From NCBI GenBank assembly GCA_964016885.1, contig OZ024740.1, positions 5,208,001 through 5,272,000 on the forward strand: a DNA stretch of 64,000 nucleotides, in the 5' to 3' direction. Below, in pieces: positions 1-64,000 of this stretch (position 1 is its first letter; each line of letters opens with the position of its first letter). Source of the DNA: Eledone cirrhosa (lineage: Eukaryota). Under the pieces are notes generated by a model. That model was not told where the DNA came from, searched no databases, and saw only the letters and a list, made by a program, of their open reading frames with translations. The translations under genes and the position numbers were made by a program.

Positions 1-2489
1 CTCATACATTACATAATACAGTAACATCATACATTACATAATACAGTAACATCATACATTACATAGTACAGTAACATCATACACTACATAGTACAGTAAC
101 ATCATACATTACATAATACAGTAATCTCATACATTACATAATACAGTAATCTCATACATTACATAATACAGTAACATCATAAATTACATAATACAGTAAT
201 CTCATACATTACATAATACAGTAACATCATACATTACATAATACATTAACATCATACATTACATAATACAGTAACATCATACATTACATAGTACAGTAAC
301 ATCATACACTACATAGTACAGTAACATCATACATTACATAATACAGTAACATCATACATTACATAATACAGTAACATCATACATTACATAGTACAGTAAC
401 ATCATACCCTACATAATACAGTAACATCATACATTACATAATACAGTAACATCATACATTACATAGTACAGTAACATCATACATTACATAGTACAGTAAC
501 ATCATACATTACATAGTACAGTAACATCATACATTACATAGTACAGTAACATCATACATTACATAGTACAGTAACATCATACATTACAAAGTACAGTAAC
601 ATCACACATTACATAATACAGTAACACCATACATTACATAATAGAGTAACATCATACATTACATAATACAGTAACATCATACATTACATAATACAGTAAG
701 CTCATACATTACATAATACAGTAATCTCATACATTACATAATACAGTAACATCATACATTACATAGTACAGTAACATCATACATTACATAGTACAGTAAC
801 ATCATACACTACATAATACAGTAACATCATACATTACATAATACAGTAAGCTCATACATTACATAATACAGTAATCTCATACATTACATAATACAGTAAC
901 ATCATACATTACATAATACAGATACAGTAATCTCATACATTACATAATACAGTAACATCATACATTACATAATACAGTAACATCATACATTACATAGTAC
1001 AGTAACATCATACACTACATAGTACAGTAACATCATACATTACAGAATACAGTAAGCTCATACATTACATAATACAGTAAGCTCATACATTACATAATAC
1101 AGTAATCTCATACATTACATAATACAGTAACATCATACATTACATAATACAGTAACATCATACATTACATAGTACAGTAATATCATACATTACATAGTAC
1201 AGTAATATCATACATTACATAGTACAGTAACATCATACACTACATAATACAGTAATCTCATACATTACATAATAGAGTAACATCATACATTACATAATAC
1301 AGTAACATCATACATTACATAATAGAGTAATATCATACATTACATAATACGGTAACATCATACATTACATAATAGAGTAACATCATACATTACATAATAG
1401 AGTAATATCATACATTACATAATACGGTAACATCATACATTACAAAATACAGTAACATCATACATTACATAATAGAGTAATATCATACATTACATAATAC
1501 GGTAACATCATACATTACATAATACAGTAACATCATACATTACATAATACAGTAATCTCATACATTACATAATAGAGTAACATCATACATTACATAATAC
1601 AGTAACATCATACATTACATAATAGAGTAATATCATACATTACATAATACAGTAACATCATACATTACATAATAGAGTAACATCATACATTACATAATAC
1701 AGTAATCTCATACATTACAGAATACAGTAAGCTCATACATTACATAATACAGTAAGCTCATACATTACATAATACAGTAATCTCATACATTACATAGTAC
1801 AGTAACATCATACATTACATAATAGAGTAATATCATACATTACATAATACAGTAACATCATACATTACATAGTACAGTAATCTCATACATTACATAGTAC
1901 AGTAACATCATACATTACATAATAGAGTAATATCATACATTACATAATACAGTAACATCGTACATTACATAGTACAGTAATCTCATACATTACACAATAC
2001 AGTAACATCATACATTACATAGTACAGTAATCTCATACATTACATAGTACAGTAACATCATACATTACATAGTACAGTAATATCATACATTACATAATAC
2101 AGTAACATCATACATTACATACAGTACATAACTATCATACATTACATAGTACAGTAACATCACACATTACATATACAGTATCATAATACAGTATCATCAT
2201 ACATTACATAATACAGTAATCTCTAATACATTACATAATATATAGCTATGTCATACATTACATAATAAAGTAACATCATACATTACATAGTACAGTAACA
2301 TCATACATTACATAATAGAGTAATCTCATACATTACATAATACAGTAATCTCATACATTACATAATATAGTAACATCATACATTACATAGTACAGTAACA
2401 TCATACATTGCATAGTACAGTAATCTCATACATTACATAATACAGTAACATCATACATTACATAGTACAGCAATATCATACGTTACATA
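1..2489. repeat. Minisatellite, 25-bp unit (ACATTACATAATACAGTAACATCAT), ~100 copies, runs off the left edge
   Basis: Direct 25-bp periodicity with recurring variants (AGTACAG, AATCTC, AAGCTC, ATAGAG). Confidence 0.97.
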
Positions 2490-5400
2490 ATACACTACAT
2501 ACCACACTACATATCACACTATATATCACACTACATACCACACTACATATCACACTACATACCACACTACATACCACACTACATACCACACTACATATCA
2601 CACTACATATCACACTACATATCACACTACATATCACACTACATATCACACTACATATCACACTACATACCACACTACACATCACACTACATATCACACT
2701 ACATACCACACTACATATCACATTACATATCACACTACATATCACATTACATATCACACTACATATCACAATACATATCACACTACATATCACACTACAT
2801 ATCACACTACATATCACACTACATATCACACTACATATCACACTACATATCACACTACATACCACACTACATATCACACTACATATCACATTACATATCA
2901 CACTACATATCACAATACATATCACACTACATATCACACTACATATCACACTACATATCACATTACATACCACACTACATATCACACTATATATCACACT
3001 ACATATCACACTATATATCACACTACATACCACACTACATATCACACTACATATCACACTACATATCACACTACATATCACACTACACATCACACTACAT
3101 ATCACACTACATATCACACTACATATCACACTACACATCACACTACATATCACACTACATACCACACTACATATCACACTACATATCACACTACATACCA
3201 CACATCACATTACATATCACACTACATACCACACTACACATCACATTACATATCACACTACATATCACATCACACTACATACCACACTACACATCACATT
3301 ACATATCACACTACATATCACACTACATATCACACTACATACCACACTACATATCACACTACATATCACACTACATATCACACTACATACCACACTACAT
3401 ATCACACTACATATCACATTACATATCACACTACATATCACATTACATATCACACTACATATCACAATACATACCACACTACACATCACACTACATATCA
3501 CACTACATATCACACTACATATCACACTACATATCACACTACATATCACACAACATATCACACTACATATCACACTACACATCACACTACATATCACACT
3601 ACATATCACACTACACATCACACTACATATCACACTACATATCACACTACATATCACACTACATATCACACTACACATCACACTACATATCACACTACAT
3701 ACCACACTACATACCACACTACATACCACACTACATATCACACTACATACCACACTACATACCACACTACATATCACACTACATATCACATTACATATCA
3801 CACTACATATCACACTACATATCACACTAAATATCACAATACATACCACACTACACATCACACTACATACCACACTACATATCACACTGCATATCACACT
3901 AAATACCACACTACATACCACACTACATATCACACTACATATCACACTACATATCACACTACATACCACACTACATATCACACTAAATATCACACTACAT
4001 ATCACACTACATACCACACTACATACCACACTACATATCACACTACATATCACACTACATACCACACTACATATCACACTACATATCACACTACATATCA
4101 CACTACATACCACACTACATACCACACTACATATCACACTACATATCACACTACATACCACACTACATGTCACACTACATATCACACTACATATCACACT
4201 ACATATCACACTACATATCACACTACATATCATACTAAATATCACACTACATACCACACTACATATCACACTACATATCACACTACATATCACACAACAT
4301 ACCACACTACATACCACACTACATACCACACTACATATCACACTACATATCATACTACATATCACACTACATACCACACTAAATATCACACTACATATCA
4401 CACTACATACCACACTACATATCACACTACATATCACACTACATATCACACTACATATCACACTACATATCACACTACATACCACACTACATATCACACT
4501 ACATATCACACTACATATCACACTACATACCACACTACATACCACACTACATATCACACTACATATCACACTACATACCACACTACATGTCACACTACAT
4601 ATCACACTACATATCACACTACATATCACACTACATATCACACTACATATCATACTAAATATCACACTACATACCACACTACATATCACACTACATATCA
4701 CACTACATATCACACAACATACCACACTACATACCACACTACATACCACACTACATATCACACTACATATCATACTACATATCACACTACATACCACACT
4801 AAATATCACACTACATATCACACTACATACCACACTACATATCACACTACATATCACACTACATATCACACAACATACCACACTACATACCACACTACAT
4901 ACCACACTACATATCACACTACATATCATACTACATATCACACTACATACCACACTAAATATCACACTACATATCACACTACATACCACACTACATATCA
5001 CACTACATACCACACTACATATCACACTACATACCACGCTACATATCACACTACATATCACACTACATACCACACTACATATAACACTACATACCACACT
5101 ACATACCACACTACATATCACACTACATATCACACTACATATCACACTACATACCACACTACATATCACACTACATATCACACTACATACCACACTACAT
5201 ATCACACTACATATCACACTACATATCACATTACATATCACACTACATATCACACTACATATCACACTACATACCACACTACATACCACACTACATACCA
5301 CACTACATATCACACTACATATCACACTACATATCACACTACATATCATACTACATATCACACTGCATATCACACTAAATACCACACTACATATCACACT

Positions 5401-7650
5401 ACATATCACACTACATATCACACTACATATCACACTACATATCACACTACATATCACACTACATATCACACTACATATCACACTACATATCACAATACAT
5501 ATCACACTACATACCACACTACATATCACACTACATATCACACTACATACCACACTACATATCACACTACATATCACACTACATATCACACTACATATCA
5601 TACTACATATCACACTACATATCACACTACATACCACACTACACATCACACTACATATCACACTACATATCACACTACATATCACACTACATATCACACT
5701 ACATATCACACTACATATCACACTACATATCACACTACATACCACACTACATATCACACTACATATCACACTACATACCACACTACATACCACACTACAT
5801 ATCACACTACATATCACACTACATACCACACTACATACCACACTACATATCACACTACATATCACACTACATACCACACTACATACCACAATACATATCA
5901 CAATACATACCACACTACATATCACACTACATATCACACTACATACCACACTACATACCACACTACATATCACACTACATATCACACTACATATCACACT
6001 ACATACCACACTACATATCACACTACATATCACACTACATATCACACTACATACCAAACTACATACCACACTACATATCACACTACATATCACACTACAT
6101 ATCAATACATATCACACTACATATCATACTACATATCACACTACATACCACACTACATATCACACTACATATCACACTACATATCACACTACATACCACA
6201 CTACATATCACACTACATACCACACTACATACCACACTACATATCACACTACATATCACACTACATACCACACTACATACCACACTACATATCACACTAC
6301 ATATCACACTACATATCACACTACATATCACACTACATATCACACAACATACCACACTACATATCACACTACATATCACGCTACATACCACGCTACATAT
6401 CACACTACATATCACACTACATATCACACTACATACCACACTACATATCACACTACATACCACACTACATATCATACTACATATCACACTACATATCACA
6501 CTACATATCACACTACATATCACACTACATATCACACAACATACCACACTACATATCACACTACATATCACGCCACATACCACGCTACATATCACACTAC
6601 ATATCACACTACATATCACACTACATACCACACTACATATCACACTACATACCACACTACATATCATACTACATATCACACTACATACCACACTACATAT
6701 CACACTACATATCACACTACATATCACACTACATACCACACTACATATCACACTACATATCACACTACATATCACACTACATACCACACTACATACCACA
6801 CTACATATCACACTACATATCACACTACATATCACACTACATACCACACTACATACCACACTACATATCACACTACATATCACACTACATACCACACTAC
6901 ATGTCACACTACATATCACACTACATATCACACTACATATCACACTACATATCACACTACATATCATACTAAATATCACACTACATACCACACTACATAT
7001 CACACTACATATCACACTACATATCACACAACATACCACACTACATACCACACTACATACCACACTACATATCACACTACATATCATACTACATATCACA
7101 CTACATACCACACTAAATATCACACTACATATCACACTACATACCACACTACATATCACACTACATATCACACTACATATCACACAACATACCACACTAC
7201 ATACCACACTACATACCACACTACATATCACACTACATATCATACTACATATCACACTACATACCACACTAAATATCACACTACATATCACACTACATAC
7301 CACACTACATATCACACTACATACCACACTACATATCACACTACATACCACGCTACATATCACACTACATATCACACTACATACCACACTACATATAACA
7401 CTACATACCACACTACATACCACACTACATATCACACTACATATCACACTACATATCACACTACATATCAATACATATCACACTACATATCATACTACAT
7501 ATCACACTACATACCACACTACATATCACACTACATATCACACTACATATCACACTACATACCACACTACATATCACACTACATACCACACTACATATCA
7601 TACTACATATCACACTACATACCACACTACATATCACACTACATATCACA
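2490..7650. repeat. Minisatellite, 12-bp unit (CACTACATATCA / CACTACATACCA), ~430 copies
   Basis: 12-bp periodicity. It produces the spurious (CSVI)n ORFs on the minus strand. Confidence 0.97.
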
Positions 7651-7760
7651 TCTACCCCTATTCCAATAGCACCACACATTACATGTTATTTTGACACCAC
7701 ACATGATATTATACAATAACCATATATATTATATAATACACCTCACACCTCACATATTGC

Positions 7761-9528
7761 ACTGACCTCACACATTACACAGTAAACTGACCTCACACAT
7801 TACACAATAAACTGACCTCACACATTACACAGTAAACTGACCTCACACATTACACAATAAACTGACCTTACACATTACACTGACCTCACACATTACACAT
7901 TACACTGACCTCACACATTACACATTACACTGACCTCACACATTACACATTACACTGACCTCACACATTACACAGTAAACTGACCTCACACATTACACAT
8001 TACACTGACCTCACACATTACACAGTAAACTGATCTCACACATTACACATTACACTGACCTCACACATTACACATTACACTGACCTCACACATTACACAT
8101 TACACTGACCTCACACATTACACAGTAAACTCACCTCACACATTACACAGTAAACTCACCTCACACATTACACATTACACTGACCTCACACATTACACAG
8201 TAAACTGACCTCACACATTACACAGTAAACTGACCTCACACATTACACAGTAAACTGACCTCACACATTACACAGTAAACTGACCTCACACATTACACAT
8301 TACACTGACCTCACACATTACACATTACACTGACCTCACACATTACACAGTAAACTCACCTCACACATTACACATTACACTGACCTCACACATTACACAT
8401 TACACTGACCTCACACATTACACAGTAAACTGACCTCACACATTACACAATAAACTGACCTCACACATTACACAGTAAATTGACCTCACACATTACACAT
8501 TACACTGACCTCACACATTACACATTACACTGAGCTCACACATTACACAGAAAACTGACCTCACACATTACACATTACACTGACCTCACACATTACACAT
8601 TACACTGACCTCACACATTACACATTACACTGACCTCACACATTACACAGTAAACTGACCTCACACCTTACACATTACACTGATCTCACACATTACACAG
8701 TAAACTGACCTCACACCTTACACATTACACTGACCTCACACATTACACAGTAAACTGACCTCACACCTTACACATTACACTGACCTCACACATTACACAT
8801 TACACTGACCTCACACATTACACATTACACTGACCTCACACATTACACATTACACTGACCTCACACATTACACATTACACTGACCTCACACATTACACTG
8901 TAAACTGACCTCACACATTACACATTACACTGACCTCACACATTACACATTACACTGACCTCACACACTACACAGTAAACTCACCTCACACATTACACAT
9001 TACACTGACCTCACACATTACACATTACACTGACCTCACACATTACACAGTAAACTGACCTCACACATTACACAGTAAACTGACCTCACACATTACACAT
9101 TACACTGACCTCACACATTACACATTACACTGACCTCACACATTACACATTACACTGACCTCACACATTACACAGTAAACTGACCTCACACCTTACACAT
9201 TACACTGACCTCACACATTACACAGTAAACTGACCTCACACCTTACACATTACACTGACCTCACACATTACACATTACACTGACCTCACACATTACACAT
9301 TACACTGACCTCACACATTACACATTACACTGACCTCACACATTACACATTACACTGACCTCACACATTACACAGTAAACTGACCTCACACATTACACAT
9401 TACACTGACCTCACACATTACACATTACACTGACCTCACACATTACACAGTAAACTCACCTCACACATTACACATTACACTGACCTCACACATTACACAT
9501 TACACTGACCTCACACATTACACATTAC
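7761..9528. repeat. Minisatellite, 25-bp unit with two interspersed variants (ACTGACCTCACACATTACAC+AGTAA or +ATTAC)
   Basis: Direct periodicity, ~70 copies. Confidence 0.96.
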
Positions 9529-9886
9529 ATGGTGGTGTTGGTGATGATGATTGTAGGGGTGGTGGTGGTGGTGGTAGCTCGGGTCATGGTGGAGGTAGCT
9601 CGGGTCATGGTGGAGGTAGTGAATGAGGTGGTAGTGGTGGTAGTAGAGGTGGTGATGGTAGTGGAGGTAGTAGTAGAGGTGGTAATGGTGATGATAGAGG
9701 TGGTGGTGGAGGTCGTGGTAGTTGGGGTCGTGGGCTGTTAATGGTGGTTAGTGATGGTAGCATGACGATGATGATGCTACTGATACTGCTGCTGATGATG
9801 ATGATGCTAATGATGATGATAATGATGATGATAATATGATATGAGGATATGAAGATGATGACGTTTATCACGATGGCGATGATGAT
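9529..9886. repeat. Degenerate (GGT)n/(GAT)n trinucleotide low-complexity tract
   Basis: Runs of GGT/GTA/GAT triplets. Confidence 0.9.
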
Positions 9887-9974: not shown

Positions 9975-9979
<5 letters not shown>

Positions 9980-10166
9980 AACAAGTAAGACCCCGACGGC
10001 TGAGCTCAAGCCGTTTCGACGGCTAATTCTGTCCAGAATTATCCGTCGAAACGGCTTGAGCTCAGCCGTCGGGGTCTTACTTGTTCCTATTACCCACTCT
10101 ACTACCCTAAGTATTGAGTACTTTGGTGCGTTATGGTCTACCTGGTTACTTACCACATTTCCTTCG

Positions 10167-10258: not shown

Positions 10259-11886
10259 TTAGCTTTTGTCGACTTGGAGAAAGGCTTCGACAGAGTCCCC
10301 CGTTCCATTATCTGGTGGGCTCTTAGAAAACTAGGTGTTGACGAATGGCTTGTGAGAGCTATACAAGCCATGTATAAAGAAACAGTCAGCAAGGTTAGAA
10401 TTAACACCGAATATAGTGAAGAGTTTAGCGTAAAAGTTGGTGATCATCAGGGCTCTGTTCTTAGCCCCCTACTATTTATTATTGCCCTTCAGGCTATAAC
10501 AGTGGAGTTCAAGACCGGCTGCCCATGGGAACTCCTATACGCAGATGATCTAACGCTCATAGCTGAATCAATGGCCGAGCTAGAGAAGAAATTCCAAACA
10601 TGGAAGCACGGCCTAGAATCAAAAGGCCTTAAAATTAACCTGGCTAAGACTAAAGTTCTAGTTTGTAGGAAAGAAAATAAGGCGCCGGTCCTTTCCGGGA
10701 AATGGCCATGCTCAGTGTGTAGGAAAGGCGTAGGTAGAAACTCCATTTTATGTCCCAAATGCAAAGTATGGGTGCATAAAAGATGTAGTGGGATCACAGT
10801 TAAGTTAAGAACATAGATTTTACATGTGGCCGGGGCTATGGTGCAATAAGTAGCAGCAAGTGCCCACAAAATACTAGCTCTTTCAATTGCGCAGAGGGTT
10901 CTATAGAAATAGTGAACAGCTTCCGTTATCTGGTTGACAAAATCAGCAGTGGGGGAGGGTGCTCTGAAAGTACAGTAGCTAGAATCAGAACTGGATGGAA
11001 AAAGTTCAGAGAGCTTATACCACTATTGGCCGCTAAAGGGTTCTCCCTAAAAATGAAAGGCAGGTTGTATGATGCCTGCATACGAACAGCAATGTTGCAT
11101 GGCAGTGAGACCTGGGCATTGTGTGCAGAGGATATACGCAGACTAGAGAGGAACGAAGCTTGCATGCTCCGCTGGATGTGTAATAGTAATATACGTGAAC
11201 AGCAAAGCATAAACGAACTAAGGAAAAAATTAGAAATAAGAGGGATCAGATGTTGTTTATGCGAGAGAAGGCTACGTTGGTATGGTCACGTGATGCGCAT
11301 GAAAGACGACAGCTGTATAACAAAGTGCAGGGCAATAAAGATAGACGGTAGCCACGGAGTAGGCAGACCCAGAAAAACCTGGGACGACCTGATAAATTCC
11401 GACCTCACACACTTACACCTCTCCAAGACAATGTCACTGGACCGAGATCTTTAGCGGTACTCAGTAATAGAGAAGACCCGCCTTACCTAAATACAAAGTA
11501 AAACCTACTACAGTCAGTAGGCATCTCTAACAAAATACACCCCCATCCCACCACCCCTACCCCATCCACACCGCCCCTTTCAATGTAAAGTTATGTTGGT
11601 GCCACAACATCCAGGCCGAAACAAATGAGATCGTGTAGGTATCACGACAAAAAAACACACAGTCCACGCTGTAATGTGGCCGTGTAGGTAACACGGTAAA
11701 AACCTCCCAGCCCCACACTGTAAATGTGGTTGGTGTTAGGAAGGGCATCCAGCTGTAGAAAACCCGCCAGACAGTCCTATGCGAGCAAGACAACCACTCT
11801 TGCCTCAAGTGGGAAAACTCCCGTCCAAACCCATGCACGCGTGGAACATGGACGTTAAACGGTGATGATGATGATGATGATGATGA
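10256..11886 (+). mobile_element. RTE-clade LINE family A, 5'-truncated and frameshifted (RT C-terminal half + ~370-bp 3' UTR + (GAT)n tail)
   Basis: ORFs 10274-10816 and 10912-11454 carry DLEKGFDRVPR, HQGSVLSPLLF, LLYADD, FRYL and RRLRWYGHVMR. Ends GGACGTTAAACGG(TGA)n. Confidence 0.92.
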
Positions 11887-11895
11887 TACATATAT

Positions 11896-12530
11896 CACTC
11901 AGCAAGACCTGTGTCAGCCGCTCTCCAGATATCTATTTAAGGCTGCACATGGCTATGGTGCGGCCACATTTAGAATTTGCATCATCAGTCTGGAACGCTA
12001 TCTTGCTCAGAACATTCACCACCTGGATCAGAGATGTGTAACCAAGCGAATACCCTCCATCAGGCATCTACCATACTCTGAACGCCTTGCTTCCCTGGGC
12101 ATGGATACATTGAAGCTCCGACGCCTGTCAACTGACTTGGTAAACACCCACAAAATTGTTAACCATCTTGCCAACAACAACCCTGAGCACTATTTTGATT
12201 TCCATGTGTCTAACACACGTGAACAAGCCCACAAAGTCAGAAAACAGCAGTTCCCATGACTTTCGGAAACATTTTTTCATGCTCAGAGTTGCTGAAGCAT
12301 GGAACAAACTGCCTGCATCAGTTTTTAGCTGTCGAGACACTGCATCCTTTAAGGCCTCCATGCTTCCCGAGATTCGCCAACATTACACTTAATGTTCCCC
12401 CTCCATACACATACACACATGTATATCATGACTCATACACTATTCACTTGTATATTATTCTATGTACTATACATGCACCTTTGACGAGTTGTAGTGCACC
12501 TGAGCACTTTACACAATAATTTCATTATTA
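11896..12530 (+). mobile_element. CR1-like LINE 3' fragment (same family as 55078-57045)
   Basis: Collinear with 56391-57045. Encodes RPHLEFA..W and FRKHFFMLRVAEAWNKLP, and ends in (ATT)n. Confidence 0.85.
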
Positions 12531-12539
12531 TATATATAC

Positions 12540-12572
<33 letters not shown>

Positions 12573-12632
12573 AAATATTAAAAAAATAATGAATAAAACA
12601 ATGAAACAGTTCCTTATATTAAACAAAAAAAG

Positions 12633-12786
12633 TTCATTATTTAACGATCGTTTCTAGGATATATATGTGTTAGAATTGGCATGCATATTCAACAGATCTA
12701 TGTACAAAATTATACAAAATTATACAAACTATCAAAATTAAATATACATACCAACACATATATATGCCGTCTTCAGAAATAATGAA
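12633..12786 (-). ncRNA. Type I hammerhead ribozyme (Penelope-like pLTR type) with extended stem II
   Basis: Minus strand reads UUCAUUAUUU-CUGAAGA-[stem II AUAUAUAUGUGUUGG..CUAACACAUAUAUAU]-GAAA-CGAUCG-UU-AAAUAAUGAA. Stem I is a perfect 10 bp, stem III is palindromic, and the cleavage triplet is GUU (cut between 12643 and 12642). Confidence 0.75.
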
Positions 12787-13442
12787 ATATATTTATTGAT
12801 AATAACAACAATTCAAAATTACAGGTCTGTTTGGGAACAGAGTTCAAATTGACCAATGAAAACACAAAAAGTTTATACAGTTAGGTGTGTGTATATATAT
12901 GTAAGTAACTTCGTTCACAGATATGCATAAAAATATATATGTGTTCACATGCATACGCATGCCGAAAAGATGTATGTAAATACAAAAATTCAAGGCTAAT
13001 GTCTCTGTATGTTTATAATCTACAGATAAAATACGTATACGCATATAAATATAAAAATAAATATATACACACATTCATATACTCACACATATACGTACAT
13101 TCACACACACACGCGCGTATACGCATAAAACATACACACAACCACGAACATACATTCACACACACACCCCCACACACATATATGTGTATATACTATTATC
13201 ATAAGCATATGGACATTAATGCGCGCACATAAACACTGCCACACATATTTAGATCCAGATACAGAAAGTAGGTGTGGGGGGGGGGGGGAAGGTCAGTATT
13301 TAGCGGTGTCAGCAAGCTGCCTATTTATAAATGTATCTATAAATTTAGAAATAAAAAGAAAAAGAAAAAAGAAATATATTAAGAAAATATACATATATAT
13401 ATATACATACACACACATATATACACACATATATATATATAT

Positions 13443-14050
13443 ATGGTGGCTGCCAACTCGTTTTCGAGTACGGCCACTGCTTTATATCCATGTAGGAGAA
13501 CCCCTACCGATGCAGTGAACGAATGTGACTTTTTAGTCCAGCCAGCGACTTGAAAACTCTGGTACAAAGACTACACTTGTGACCATTATTGACACATAGT
13601 GCATCATATTGACCATGTGATGACAAGTGCAGAGAGATCTCCAGATATAAAGCAATGCCTGTGCTGTGAAGCTTTTATAGTGAGCAAAGGCACTGCACAA
13701 AGCCAGTCCCACTCTCTTAACCAAGATGATATTTACCAAAAAGAAGAACAAGTCAACATCATTGGATACCATCAGGGTTGCAGGTGTTATATCAGAGTTT
13801 TCCTTCTCCTAGAATTCTGCCTTGACAAAGGCTAAGGGGTCATCTCTCCCGGTGATTTTGGATGGCTATTGAGTCTTAAGAGCTCCCTTGCCCTTTGACA
13901 GGTTTTGTTTTTAGTCCTGCAGGATGTCCAAAGTCACCCTCCTCACCAAGAAACCTTGGTGGGGTTGCCAGTTTAGTCGTCAACGACCCGACCATGAGAC
14001 AGGTTGTACTGGGATACATGTTACCAGTAGCACCAACTGGTGACCTGACA
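13443..14050 (-). mobile_element. Internally deleted non-autonomous RTE derivative (5'-UTR-like segment + last C2H2 finger + 3' tail)
   Basis: Minus 13580-13505 encodes KCSLCTRVFKSLAGLKSHIRSLHR*, homologous to the last finger of ORF 50072-51439. The terminus 13443-13478 matches 49583-49620. Flanked by TA-rich repeats. Confidence 0.7.
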
Positions 14051-14358
14051 TAATATATATATATATACATATATACACACATATATAAACAAGTAAAATA
14101 TAAAATATACATCAATATACATACATATACATATATATATATATATACGTATATATACATACATATACATACACATATACATAAACACATACATACACAT
14201 ACATATACATACACACACCATATAAATACACATACACATACACACATGCATACATATAGAGACACATACATATACACATATAAATACATAGACATATACA
14301 CATATACACGCATATATATATAAACATACATACATACCTATATATATATCCATTCATA

Positions 14359-14425
<67 letters not shown>

Positions 14426-14484
14426 CACATATCTACATACATATAAAACACACTCATGCATATACACACATACACATACATACC

Positions 14485-14528
<44 letters not shown>

Positions 14529-14533
14529 CACAT

Positions 14534-14586
<53 letters not shown>

Positions 14587-14698
14587 TATACATATATATA
14601 TATACACACATACATACACTTACATACACATACACATATACAAAGATATATATACATACACACACACATATAATAAATATATATATATATATATATAT
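14051..14698. repeat. (TA)n/(CA)n/(CATA)n compound microsatellite
   Basis: Direct observation. Confidence 0.9.
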
Positions 14699-47736: not shown

Positions 47737-47962
47737 CAACCAAGTCCTACTCAATTGCTGATAACAGTTGAAGAAGTATAATAGTTTTTGTTGCACTCTA
47801 CCTGTATCTTTTTCCTGGTTACCCAAACAACACATGTGACCATTTCACCTTTCCCCTCACTTTCACCATAGTTAACAATATTCTATTATCTTCAAGTACA
47901 ACACAATCTCTATTGCACTCACAGCTTACACTCCTGGCTTACCAATATTATTCTTACCACAA

Positions 47963-49330
47963 GGGCGGTGGATTGGCAGTATTGGTAGAGGGTCAGATGC
48001 CATGGTAGGTGGTGGATTGGCAGTATTGGTAGAGGGTCTGACACCATGCTAGGGTGGTGGATTGGTAGTATTGGTAGAGGGTCTGACACCATGGTAGGGT
48101 GGTGGATTGGTAGTATTGGTAGAGGGTCTGACACCATGTTAGGTGGTGGATTGGCAGTATTGGTAGAGGGTCTGACACCATGCTAGGGTGGTGGATTGGT
48201 AGTATTGGTAGAGGGTTTGACAGCATGTTAGGTGGTGGATTGGTAGTATTGGTAGAGGGTCTGACACCATGTTAGGTGGTGGATTGGCAGCATCGGTAGA
48301 GGGTCAGATGCCATGCTAGGGTGGTGGATTGGTAGTATTGGTAGAGGGTCTGACACCATGGTAGGGTGGTGGATTGGCAGTATTGGTAGAGGGTCTGACA
48401 CCATGTTAGGTGGTGGATTGGCAGTATTGGTAGAGGGTCTGACACCATGCTAGGGTGGTGGATTGGTAGTATTGGTAGAGGGTCTGATGCCATGTTAGGT
48501 GGTGGATTGGCAGTATCGGTAGAGGGTCAGATGCCATGCTAGGGTGGTGGATTGGTAGTATTGGTAGAGGGTCTGACACCATGCTAGGGTGGTGGATTGG
48601 CAGTATTGGTAGAGGGTTTGACAGCATGTTAGGTGGTGGATTGGTAGTATTGGTAGAGGGTCTGACACCATGTTAGGTGGTGGATTGGCAGTATTGGTAG
48701 AGGGTCTGATGTCATGCTAGGGTGGTGGATTGGCAGTATTGGTAGAGGGACAGACGCCATGCTAGGGTGGTGGATTGGTAGTATTGGTAGAGGGTCTGAC
48801 ACCATGGTAGGGTGGTGGATTGGCAGTATTGGTAGAGGGTCTGACACCATGGTAGGGTGGTGGATTGGCAGTATAGGTAGAGGGTCTGACACCATGTTAG
48901 GGTGGTGGATTGGCAGTATTGGTAGAGGGACAGACGCCATGCTAGGGTGGTGGATTGGCAGTATTGGTAGAGGGTCTGACACCATGTTAGGGTGGTGGAT
49001 TGGCAGTATTGGTAGAGGGTCTGACACCATGTTAGGTGGTGGATTGACAGTATTGGTAGAGGGTCTGATGCCATGCTAGGGTGGTGGATTGGCAGTATTG
49101 GTAGAGGGTCTGACACCATGTTAGGTGGTCAATTGGCAGTATTGGTAGAGGGTCTGATGCCATGCTAGGGTGGTGGATTGGCAGTATCAGTAGAGGGTCA
49201 GATGCCATGTTAGGTGGTGGATTGCCAGTATTGGTAGAGGGTCAGATGCCATGTTAGGTGGTGGATTGGCAGTATTGGTAGAGGGTCAGATGCCATGTTA
49301 GGTGGTGGATTGGCAGTATTGGTAGAGGAT
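47963..49330 (+). repeat. Minisatellite, 44/45-bp unit (GGTGGTGGATTGGCAGTATTGGTAGAGGGTCTGACACCATGCTAG), ~31 copies, derived from a SINE head
   Basis: Direct periodicity. Each unit has an A-box-like TGGCAGTATTGG, and the last unit continues into the SINE body. Confidence 0.9.
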
Positions 49331-62399: not shown

Positions 62400-64000
62400 T
62401 TAGTGTTACCTGAATGGTGGTAGTGTCATCTGTAGAGTGGTAGTGTCACCTGTAGAGTGGTAGTGTCACCTGTAGTATGGTAGTGTCATCTGTAGTGTGG
62501 TAGTGTCACCTGTAGTGTGGTAGTGTCATCTGTAGTGTGGTAGTGTCACCTGCAGTGTGGTAGTGTCACCTGTAATGTGGTAGTGTCACCCGTAGTGTGG
62601 TAGTGTCACCTGTAGTGTGGTAGTGTCACCTGTAGTGTGGTAGTGTCACCTGTAGTGTGGTAGTGTCACCTGTAGTGTAGTAGTGTCACCTGTAGTGTGG
62701 TAGTGTCACCTGTATGTGGTAGTGTCACCTGTATGTGGTAGTGTCACCAGTAGTGTGGTAGTGTCACCTGTAGTGTGGTAGTGTCATCTGTAGTGTGGTA
62801 GCATCACCTGTAGTGTGGTAGTGTCACCTGTAGTGTGGTAGTGTCACCTGTAAGGTGGTGGTGTCACCTGTAGTGTGGAAGTATCACCTGTAAAAGGGAA
62901 GTGTCACCAGTAGTGTGGTAGTGTCACCTGTAGTGTGGTAGTGTCATCTGTAGTGTGGTAGCATCACCTGTAGTGTGGTAGTGTCACCTGTAGTGTGGTA
63001 GTGTCACCTGTAAGGTGGTGGTGTCACCTGTAGTGTGGAAGTATCACCTGTAAAAGGGAAGTGTCACCAGTAGTGTGGTAGTGTCGCCAGTAGTGGGGTA
63101 GTGTCACCTGTAGTGTGGTAGTGTCACCTGTAGTGTGGCAGTGTCACGTGTAGTGTGGTAGTGTCACCTGTAGTGTGGTAGTGTCACCTGTAGTGTGGTA
63201 GTGTCACCTGTAGTGTGGTAGTGTTACCTGTAGTGTGGTAGTGTCACCTGTAGTGTGGTAGTGTCACATGTAGTGTGGTAGTGTTACCTGTAGTGTGGTA
63301 GTGTCACCTGTAGTGTGGTAGTGTCAACTGTAGTGTGGTAGTGTCACCTGTAGTGTGGTAGTGTCACCTGTAATGTGGTAGTGTTACCTGTCGTGTAGTA
63401 GTGTCACCTGTAGTGTGGTAGTGTCACATGTAGTGTGGTAGTGTCACCTGTAGTGTGGTAGTGTCACCTGTAATGTGGTAGTGTTACCTGTCGTGTAGTA
63501 GTGTCACCTGTAGTGTGGTAGTGTCACATGTAGTGTGGTAGTGTCACCTGTAGTGTGGTAGTGTCACCTGTAATGTGGTAGTGTTACCTGTCGTGTAGTA
63601 GTGTCACCTGTAGTGTGGTAGTGTCATCTGTAGTGTGGTAGTGTCACCTGTTGTGTGGTAGTGTCACCTGTAATGTAGTAGTGTCATCTGTAGTGTGGTA
63701 GTGTCACCTGTAATGTAGTAGTGTCACCTGTAGTGTGGTAGTGTCACATGTAGTGTGGTAATGTCACCTGTAGTGTGGTAGTGTCACCTGTAATGTAGTA
63801 GTGTCACCTGTAGTGTGGTAGTGTCACCTGTAATGTAGTAGTGTCACCTGAAGTGTGGTAGTGTCACCTGTAGTGTGGTAGTGTCACCTGCAGTGTGGTA
63901 GTGTCACCTGTAGTGTGGTAGTGTCACCTGTAGTGTGGTAGTGTCACCTGTAGTGTGGTAGTGTCACCTGTAGAGAGCTAGTGTCACCTGTAGTGTGGTA
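62400..64000. repeat. Minisatellite, 20-bp unit TGGTAGTGTCACCTGTAGTG, runs off the right edge
   Basis: Direct periodicity with internal 160-bp and 100-bp duplications. Confidence 0.97.

What the first reader, a model, noticed from the sequence alone, without database searches (positions are those of the whole stretch)
12633..12786. Hammerhead ribozyme with perfect 10-bp stem I and ~115-nt stem II insertion
Seen on the minus strand: complete core CUGAAGA..GAAA..UH, 10-bp stem I, about 15-bp stem II base enclosing a long AU-rich loop, and palindromic stem III ACGAUCGU. Established: tiny palindromic stem III is typical of PLE/retrozyme hammerheads that cleave as dimers. It lies in an otherwise anonymous AT-rich island. 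A C/A mismatch at the first stem II position may lower activity.
Basis: partly seen in the sequence, partly recalled or inferred. Interest (0 to 1): 0.75.

Follow-up and report, generated by a model that had tools for sequence, protein, structure and literature searches.

The report
Long-armed hammerhead of Hydra retrotransposon
This hammerhead (self-cutting RNA) motif is the end-piece of a broken copy of a jumping gene with over 12,000 related copies in this animal genome; its unusually long hairpin arm is conserved and is predicted to keep the ribozyme mostly folded off, while likely hiding a splice site and likely being edited by the host.

Summary
It is the pseudo-LTR hammerhead at the 3' end of a 5'-truncated Penelope-like retroelement (12570-15418) whose protein carries Hydra-clade motifs. 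Three sister families give 7,455, 4,287 and 669 exact motif hits. The 115-nt 'insertion' is a long hairpin whose base covaries between families (58, 62), not an AU-rich loop. The C/A mismatch is kept in all three families, and 15 of 25 published Hydra hammerheads have a mismatch there (70), so it is not decay. The arm is over four times longer than in any of them. At least 3,105 copies begin 7 nt before the core and about 50 near the cut site (78-80, 83), so templates are mostly uncut; folding predicts an off state for such RNA (59). The arm holds a conserved splice-donor-like word; no spliced read was seen. One run of unrecorded kind shows six A>G changes that are rare or absent in genomic copies, a hint of ADAR editing (35). 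The scan noted long-armed Hydra hammerheads before on other DNA. Verdict: new variant of a known kind; cleavage untested.

The parts
12633..12786 (-). Type I hammerhead motif in the pseudo-LTR of a Penelope-like element
12777..12786 (-). Stem I, 5' strand (10 nt; only 7 nt if the RNA starts at 12783)
12783..12783 (-). Common 5' start of truncated copies; likely transcription start (inferred)
   Evidence: 33 of 64 non-continuing copies; 649 + 2,456 genomic copies with a non-element base before it; loose ends here in 3 of 4 runs
12792..12797 (-). AATAAA upstream of the common start, seen in families A, B and C; role unknown
   Evidence: read by eye
12770..12776 (-). Catalytic core C3-A9
   Evidence: 94-96% identical between families with stem I
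12655..12769 (-). 115-nt stem II: C.A mismatch, 2 pairs, C.C mismatch, long covarying helix, bulge, second helix, apical hairpin
12744..12752 (-). Splice-donor-like site (exon end 12752, GT at 12751), paired within the arm
   Evidence: 100% identical between the three families while the arms are 43-48% identical between C and A or B; use untested
12698..12751 (-). Conserved GT...AG block (54 nt here; mostly 42 in family B, 47-48 in C); candidate mini-intron or structural element
12644..12654 (-). GAAA core and 8-nt palindromic stem III (dimer interface, predicted)
12642..12643 (-). Predicted cleavage site after GUU
   Evidence: no enrichment of copy starts here
12633..12642 (-). Stem I, 3' strand
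12570..12632 (-). Rest of the pseudo-LTR up to the element's 3' end
   Evidence: shared end point in copies
12529..12569 (.). (TA)n target microsatellite
12787..15380 (-). 5'-truncated, microsatellite-rich 3' UTR of the element, with two nested unrelated insertions; no ORF; the far boundary is approximate
   Evidence: 80-95% matches to other copies
15387..15418 (+). Inverted 32-nt end of the element's 'tail', closing the insertion
   Evidence: exact match to the tail end of full-length copy L037

Best explanation
The motif is the pseudo-LTR hammerhead at the 3' end of a 5'-truncated copy of a Penelope-like retrotransposon with Hydra-clade protein motifs, and its long, conserved stem II likely works as a masking hairpin that is predicted to hold element RNA uncut and would hide a likely splice donor. 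SHOWN: copy numbers; the full-length layout (hammerhead, tail, 813-aa RT/endonuclease ORF, long 3' UTR, hammerhead, (TA)n); inverted 5'-truncated partners; covariation of the arm; a common copy start at 12783; no excess of copies starting at the cut; no precisely spliced genomic copy. INFERRED: 12783 is the transcription start. RNA starting there has only 7 bp of stem I and is predicted to fold off, the 5' core strand pairing with A11.1-GAAA as an extension of the arm. This uncut, unspliced RNA would be the reverse-transcription template. Splicing from the donor in the arm to the single acceptor just before the ORF would give an mRNA without the ribozyme and without 9 of 10 upstream ATGs. Cleavage, if any, would occur in read-through 3' copies with the 10-bp stem I, as a dimer through the palindrome and perhaps with protein help. 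This particular copy has no ORF and is likely a passenger. Odds: identity about 0.95; mostly uncut template about 0.85; off fold about 0.55; functional donor about 0.5.
For: Copies: 7,455 / 4,287 / 669 exact hits, controls 0. Ends in (TA)n, inverted pairs and tails match the described PLE layout. Full-length L037, and L045, L031, L040 with 97-99% identical proteins. Protein motifs RWR, DKT, YRDD, CxCX5C, CxxC and CxH match the Hydra description. Stem II base: 4 of 7 counted pairs change on both sides, 97% of cells paired; slid controls 28-59%; per-family pairs. Short-armed relatives share the 3-position-then-mismatch register. Copy starts. Off fold favoured by 3.1-8.5 kcal/mol from +1 in 6 of 6 natural copies, against -1.2 to +1.8 in read-through context. 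Donor word invariant across families; only one YAG between tail and ATG. Precedents: 5' UTR introns in Penelope and Chlamys-3; uncut RNA is the dominant substrate of the anole element.
Against: No cleavage, promoter or splicing data. No splice joint in 4 runs or in X4 on L037:235-770 (its one joint, 401-502, has CT..AT ends). The G-before-start test for a capped template was inconclusive: 649 of 3,105. The off fold partly follows from stem I ending in UUU, so it may be incidental. Covariation rests on three related families, i.e. few independent events; the pair-count measure was reached by 35 of 500 shuffles. The element is about 7 kb, Hydra elements are generally under 3 kb.
Confidence: 0.7

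Rival explanations
1. The ribozyme is routinely active, as a dimer of tandem or neighbouring copies, and processes element RNA; the long arm is tolerated.
For: Core, palindrome and stem I are conserved across families; on and off folds are about equal in read-through context; PLE hammerheads are described as weakly active dimers.
Against: 103 hits lack the normal base before the cut; of 25 read, 9 are point mutants, 4 inverted junctions and 12 start near the cut, about 50 genome-wide, no more than the background truncation rate I estimate. This speaks to templates only, not to all transcripts.
Confidence: 0.25
2. The ribozyme is catalytically dead or nearly so; the arm is kept as an internal promoter or protein-binding element and the GT...AG words are incidental.
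For: No G10.1-C11.1 pair; no spliced reads; Penelope's promoter overlaps this region; ribozyme mutants did not affect insertion in vitro in the anole element.
Against: The core is more conserved between families than the arms; the arms covary as RNA pairs, including G.U intermediates, which a DNA promoter does not need.
Confidence: 0.25
3. The conserved 54-nt GT...AG block (12751-12698) is a mini-intron inside loop II; splicing shortens the arm and leaves the core intact.
For: Donor, branch-like word, U tract and YAG are conserved while lengths vary, mostly 42-54 nt.
Against: 42 nt is very short for an animal intron (own knowledge); removal changes neither the on/off balance nor the upstream ATG load, 10 to 9; no joint seen.
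Confidence: 0.15
4. A-to-I editing of A11.1 turns the C.A mismatch into a C-I pair and switches the ribozyme on.
For: Run X4 reads G at 12655 in 15-17% of depth (19 and 28 contigs), X1 in 0 of about 843,000 depth, the genome in 4 copies of family A. All 6 of the 15 X4 differences not explained by genomic variants are A>G. Reading 11.1 as G shifts the fold 2.0-3.5 kcal/mol towards on.
Against: X4's kind is not on record and it is a different sample from X1; alleles can mimic editing. A15.1 of the core is changed as often (19-20%), which should inactivate (own knowledge). Linkage of the two changes is unknown. Most edited sites in untranslated regions of a squid overlap repeats, so collateral editing is the simpler reading. 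15 of 25 Hydra hammerheads have a U.U or U.C mismatch there that editing cannot repair.
Confidence: 0.1
5. The whole insertion is a 98-nt intron (12751-12654) whose removal rebuilds a compact minimal hammerhead.
For: GT donor, branch-like word 19 nt before an AG that overlaps G12; YAG kept in all three families.
Against: The 3' arm that would be removed is homologous to the stem II of short-armed relatives and covaries with the 5' arm; the branch word is not kept in many B and C copies; 0 precise intron-less copies, the 3 short hits being deletions that keep the AG.
Confidence: 0.05
6. It is a retrozyme: a small tandem, non-coding element.
For: Type I hammerhead with palindromic stem III; many short copies.
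Against: No tandem array here; copies are truncated pieces of an autonomous RT/endonuclease element.
Confidence: 0.02

Closest known systems
Hydra clade of C-terminal EN+ Penelope-like elements and their hammerheads (Craig et al. 2021, PMC8557442; read: passages, section 11, supplement parts 1-2 and search hits; preprint 10.1101/2021.04.23.441226: passages)
   Same: Protein motifs DKT, RW(K/R), CxCX5C linker, CxxC and CxH; (TA)n targets; inverted 5'-truncated partner and tail; type I hammerhead near the 3' end; a mismatch between core and stem II in 15 of 25 listed elements (counted by eye); one Chara element in that table has C/A there.
   Different: Stem II region 115 nt against at most about 26 nt (loops of 3-10 nt); element about 7 kb with a 4.3-kb microsatellite 3' UTR; tail about 135 nt against 30-40; 10-bp stem I; a different hammerhead from the listed Hydra-1_Obim.
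Minimal hammerheads in metazoan PLE pseudo-LTRs (Cervera and De la Pena 2014, PMC4209133; read: parts 1-2 of 4)
   Same: Type I, palindromic stem III suited to dimers, extra base after A9, tandem and opposite-strand copies, mostly truncated relics.
   Different: No G10.1-C11.1 pair directly at the core; extra base on both sides; arm far longer than 7-8 bp.
Penelope of Drosophila virilis and Chlamys-3_cRei 5' UTR introns (PMC2377424 passages; PMC8557442 passages; PMC4209133)
   Same: Start site inside the pseudo-LTR followed within about 50 nt by a donor (32 nt here, 46 there); intron retained in genomic copies; intron overlaps the ribozyme region in Penelope.
   Different: There splicing is shown and the intron end maps to helix I; here the donor-like site lies inside stem II and splicing is untested.
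Poseidon element of Anolis, PAc (Frangieh et al. 2024, PMC11167929; read: parts 1-2 of 4)
   Same: Tail from internal start of reverse transcription; uncut RNA as main template; no sign of cut ends among copies.
   Different: Other clade; no long arm described in the parts read; its ribozyme was shown to cleave with protein help.
Engineered editing-dependent hammerheads (PMC3923133; read: abstract, one passage)
   Same: Cleavage made to depend on the A-to-I state of one site.
   Different: Artificial and trans-acting; here natural and only hinted at.

Membership tests
Type I hammerhead ribozyme | Core C3-A9, G12-A14, A15.1-U16.1, H17 in three-helix order, ends in stem I | tested here: met
Type I hammerhead ribozyme | Stem II closed next to the core by a pair (usually G10.1-C11.1) | tested here: not met
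   C.A in 76 of 85 distinct cores; a mismatch here also in 15 of 25 published Hydra hammerheads, hence filed as a variant
Type I hammerhead ribozyme | Match to an Rfam hammerhead model | tested here: not met
   no hit at gathering score or E up to 10; the short-armed hammerhead in the window was missed too
Type I hammerhead ribozyme | Site-specific self-cleavage | not testable with these tools
   needs an in vitro assay
PLE dimer-type hammerhead | Short palindromic stem III | tested here: met
   8-nt self-complementary word, duplex -10.0 kcal/mol; invariant in 29 of 29 aligned copies, which were picked on this word
Penelope-like element (EN+) | Single RT + C-terminal GIY-YIG ORF between pseudo-LTRs | tested here: met
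   in other copies of the family: L037, L040, L045; domains read from motifs, no Pfam hit; absent from the window copy
Penelope-like element (EN+) | Partial tandems, inverted 5'-truncated partner, tail on one end | tested here: met
Penelope-like element (EN+) | Retained spliceosomal intron in the 5' UTR (some members) | tested here: inconclusive
   signals conserved; no joint; no intron-less copy
Hydra clade | DKT and RWK motifs | tested here: met
   DKT and RWR in the L037 protein; related family has RWK
Hydra clade | CxCX5C linker; CxxC and CxH beside the conserved E and N | tested here: met
Hydra clade | CCHH motif absent from the endonuclease | tested here: inconclusive
   two widely spaced cysteines lie inside the GIY-YIG core of L037; judged by eye only
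Hydra clade | Insertion into (TA)n | tested here: met
Hydra clade | Placement in the clade on an RT tree | not tested
   published sequences could be read but were not brought into the tools; similarity to Hydra-1_Obim seen by eye
Non-LTR retrozyme | Tandem, non-coding monomers each with a hammerhead | tested here: not met
   definition from 10.64898/2026.07.22.740005, part 1 of 5

The most novel reading that the evidence does not exclude
The long arm is a natural three-way RNA switch: one hairpin masks the splice donor, holds the hammerhead core in an off fold, and is the ADAR substrate whose editing at position 11.1 makes the missing C-I pair. Host editing and splicing would then decide whether a retroelement RNA becomes template, mRNA or is cut: a natural editing-gated ribozyme, and a concrete answer to how Penelope-like elements keep their introns.
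Probability: 0.12. Interest if true: 0.75.

Novelty: new variant of a known kind. Interest (0 to 1): 0.4.

Why it matters
Hammerheads in Penelope-like elements are known, and their role and the retention of PLE introns are open questions. This family makes both testable in one 150-nt RNA: a conserved arm that pairs with a donor-like site and predicts an on/off fold depending on where transcription starts. It also shows that more than 12,000 hammerhead-bearing ends in one genome include forms that Rfam missed in this window. The single copy in the window is probably an inert relic.

Tried and rejected
Rfam: nothing. DNA search of the own genome with the 221-nt stretch returned nothing, not even the window itself, so patterns were used. 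Pfam, PDB sequence search and a single-sequence fold of the ORF were uninformative (mean pLDDT 34.5, not searched further). My recalled label 'Nematis' was dropped after reading the Hydra description. No RNA holder listed. X4 has no cover over the ORF start; not used as evidence. One X4 contig leaves the element exactly at the donor-like site with 255 foreign letters; the foreign end did not map (the best hit was a fragment of another repeat), so the 120 kb fetched around it served only as background. Apparent clustering of A>G changes at L037 358-383 was not counted, because the table lists only sites about 31 letters from contig ends. Cap-G test inconclusive. A search for other families with a donor in stem II found one short-armed family and much noise, 244 hits against 20 control. 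Counts include 4 loci picked for G at 11.1 and 3 picked as deletions. PMC5785218 (dimer cleavage of PLE hammerheads) is not held; I know it only from its citation. Seven paper searches listed nothing on a PLE hammerhead with a stem II of about 100 nt or on a natural editing-gated hammerhead; most listed papers were seen as listings only, and supplements of preprints and most of the Craig et al. supplement were not seen and may hold such cases.

Full report
Observation. On the minus strand the window reads, from 12786 down to 12633, a 10-nt stem I strand, CUGAAGA, 115 nt, GAAA, an 8-nt palindrome, U17 and the complementary stem I strand. The predicted cut is 12643|12642. The stretch folds at z = -5.91. 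A long-loop descriptor found 3 motifs in 10.4 kb around it and none in 1.04 Mb of shuffles. Rfam does not see it.

What it belongs to. The 3' 18-mer occurs 7,455 times in the genome, control 0. Copies end about 70 nt after the cut site at a (TA)n run, or run on into a tail of about 135 nt; many form head-to-head pairs. This is the layout described for Penelope-like elements (passages). Of 20 stretches fetched between paired hits, L037, L040 and L045 show hammerhead, tail, ORF, a long microsatellite-rich 3' UTR and a second hammerhead, and L031 has the ORF between inverted ends. The 813-aa L037 protein has no Pfam or PDB hit and 118 unnamed homologues, but carries RWR, DKT, YRDD, CxCX5C, CxxC and CxH, the motifs that define the Hydra clade; it resembles Hydra-1_Obim by eye. 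No tree was built and the CCHH test is unclear. The window copy runs from 12570 to an inverted 32-nt tail end at 15387-15418, has no ORF, and holds two nested insertions. The host is an animal with a 3.0-Gb genome; my guess of a cephalopod comes from recall and was not tested.

The arm. Two sister families have the same kind of arm: B with 4,287 and C with 669 exact hits. Among 85 distinct cores, position 10.1/11.1 is C.A in 76 and position 10.4/11.4 is C.C in 81, while the pairs around them change together: 10.2 is G.U, A-U and G-C in A, B and C, and 10.5-10.7 are A-U/U-A in A and B but G-C in C. On 29 picked copies, 4 of 7 counted stem II pairs change on both sides and 97% of cells pair, against 28-59% for slid controls of the whole structure; the number of such pairs was reached by 35 of 500 shuffles, and three families are few events. 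Short-armed relatives, one of them in the window, show the same register with an A-U first pair. In the published Hydra table 15 of 25 elements have a U.U or U.C mismatch between core and stem II, with loops of 3-10 nt (counted by eye). So the mismatch is a clade habit and the arm length is the oddity.

Templates are uncut and unspliced. Of 119 distinct contexts, 64 do not continue into upstream element sequence, and 33 of these begin exactly at 12783. Genome-wide, 649 + 2,456 copies have G or A/T before that base instead of C. Loose ends fall there in three of four public runs. By contrast 103 hits lack the normal base three places before the cut; of 25 read, 12 start near the cut, about 50 in all, which is the background I estimate (about 20 of 98 hits start within the 125 nt upstream). 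No copy has lost the inside of stem II precisely. This agrees with the anole element, where uncut RNA is the main substrate. That 12783 is a transcription start is inferred; the cap-G share of 21% decides nothing, and an AATAAA just upstream leaves a poly(A) cleavage site open.

Predicted switch. RNA starting at 12783 has 7 bp of stem I. In 6 of 6 natural copies from the three families an off fold, in which the 5' core strand pairs with 11.1-GAAA and extends the arm, is favoured by 3.1-8.5 kcal/mol; in read-through context the difference is -1.2 to +1.8. This is computation only, and partly follows from stem I ending in UUU.

Splice signals. An 8-nt donor-like word 32 nt after the start is identical in all three families while the arms of C are 43-48% identical to A and B; it is paired with a downstream strand in 99% of cells. 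Three acceptors are possible: 54 nt on (12698), 98 nt on (12654), or the only YAG between tail and ATG in full-length copies (L037 709). Only the last removes most upstream ATGs, 10 to 1, and would also remove the ribozyme; it parallels the 398-nt Chlamys-3 intron and the Penelope intron 46 nt after the start. No joint was seen in the laid runs. One X4 contig leaves the element exactly at the donor, but its other end did not map.

Editing hint. Run X4, of unrecorded kind, differs from L037 at 15 listed places. Nine are genomic variants. The other six are all A>G on the element's sense strand: window 12676, 12664, 12662, 12655, 12652, 12651, at 1-34% of depth. Genomic copies show G in 1 of 89 at 12676 and 0 of 94-96 at 12664, 12662, 12652 and 12651; genome-wide 4 and 6 copies have G at 12655 and 12651 in the contexts searched; run X1 has none at those two. 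One family B copy has G at the 12662 position. None of the six follows a C or G, which fits ADAR preference (own knowledge). G at 11.1 shifts the fold 2.0-3.5 kcal/mol towards on, but 15.1 is changed as often. X1 and X4 are different samples, so this is a lead, not a result.

Comparison and verdict. It works like the dimer-type pseudo-LTR hammerheads of Penelope-like elements and its element fits the Hydra clade by motifs. It departs from canonical hammerheads at 10.1/11.1 and from all listed Hydra hammerheads in arm length. Seven paper searches listed no description of such an arm. Earlier notes of this scan report long-armed Hydra hammerheads in other genomes and another piece of this one; these are unchecked and not counted as support. 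New variant of a known kind; interest 0.4; the editing-and-splicing switch reading has about 0.12 probability.

Noticed in passing
window 14828-14893 (-), within about 14700-14920: A second complete type I hammerhead with a short (31-nt) stem II and 8-bp stem I, from a related family, nested in the 3' UTR of the element; Rfam missed it too.
   Followed up: partly
window 9978-10160, 18730-18790, 19190-19376: Three insertions in (TA)n of another repeat, two of them as inverted pairs with a tail, each arm carrying GAAA, a 5-bp hairpin and UC like the 3' half of a hammerhead; earlier scan notes describe rearranged hammerheads in this genome, which I did not compare.
   Followed up: no
window about 18940-19020 (-): Weak hammerhead-like match with 5-bp stem I, 51-nt stem II region and palindromic stem III.
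   Followed up: no
window 13445-14052: A 600-nt dispersed repeat, about 95% identical to copies in unrelated loci, inserted in the element's 3' UTR.
   Followed up: partly
window 10260-11450 and 15880-18480 (+): Frameshifted reverse-transcriptase fragments that look like RTE-type LINEs (label recalled, no family search).
   Followed up: no
window 2-9529, 19928-25243, 25450-47031, 47962-49328, 62401-64000: Long minisatellite arrays with periods of 12-45 nt fill most of the window.
   Followed up: no
L178-L186: A short-armed hammerhead-like family with a donor-like word in loop II but no acceptor within the loop; found by selecting for that word.
   Followed up: partly
L037:3184-7240: The full-length element carries about 4 kb of degenerate (TA)/(TG) microsatellite in its 3' UTR and transposes it; other repeats insert into it.
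   Followed up: no
L041, L044, L048, L052: At least four further Hydra-type ORFs, 40-53% identical to L037, lie next to or inside copies of this family.
   Followed up: no
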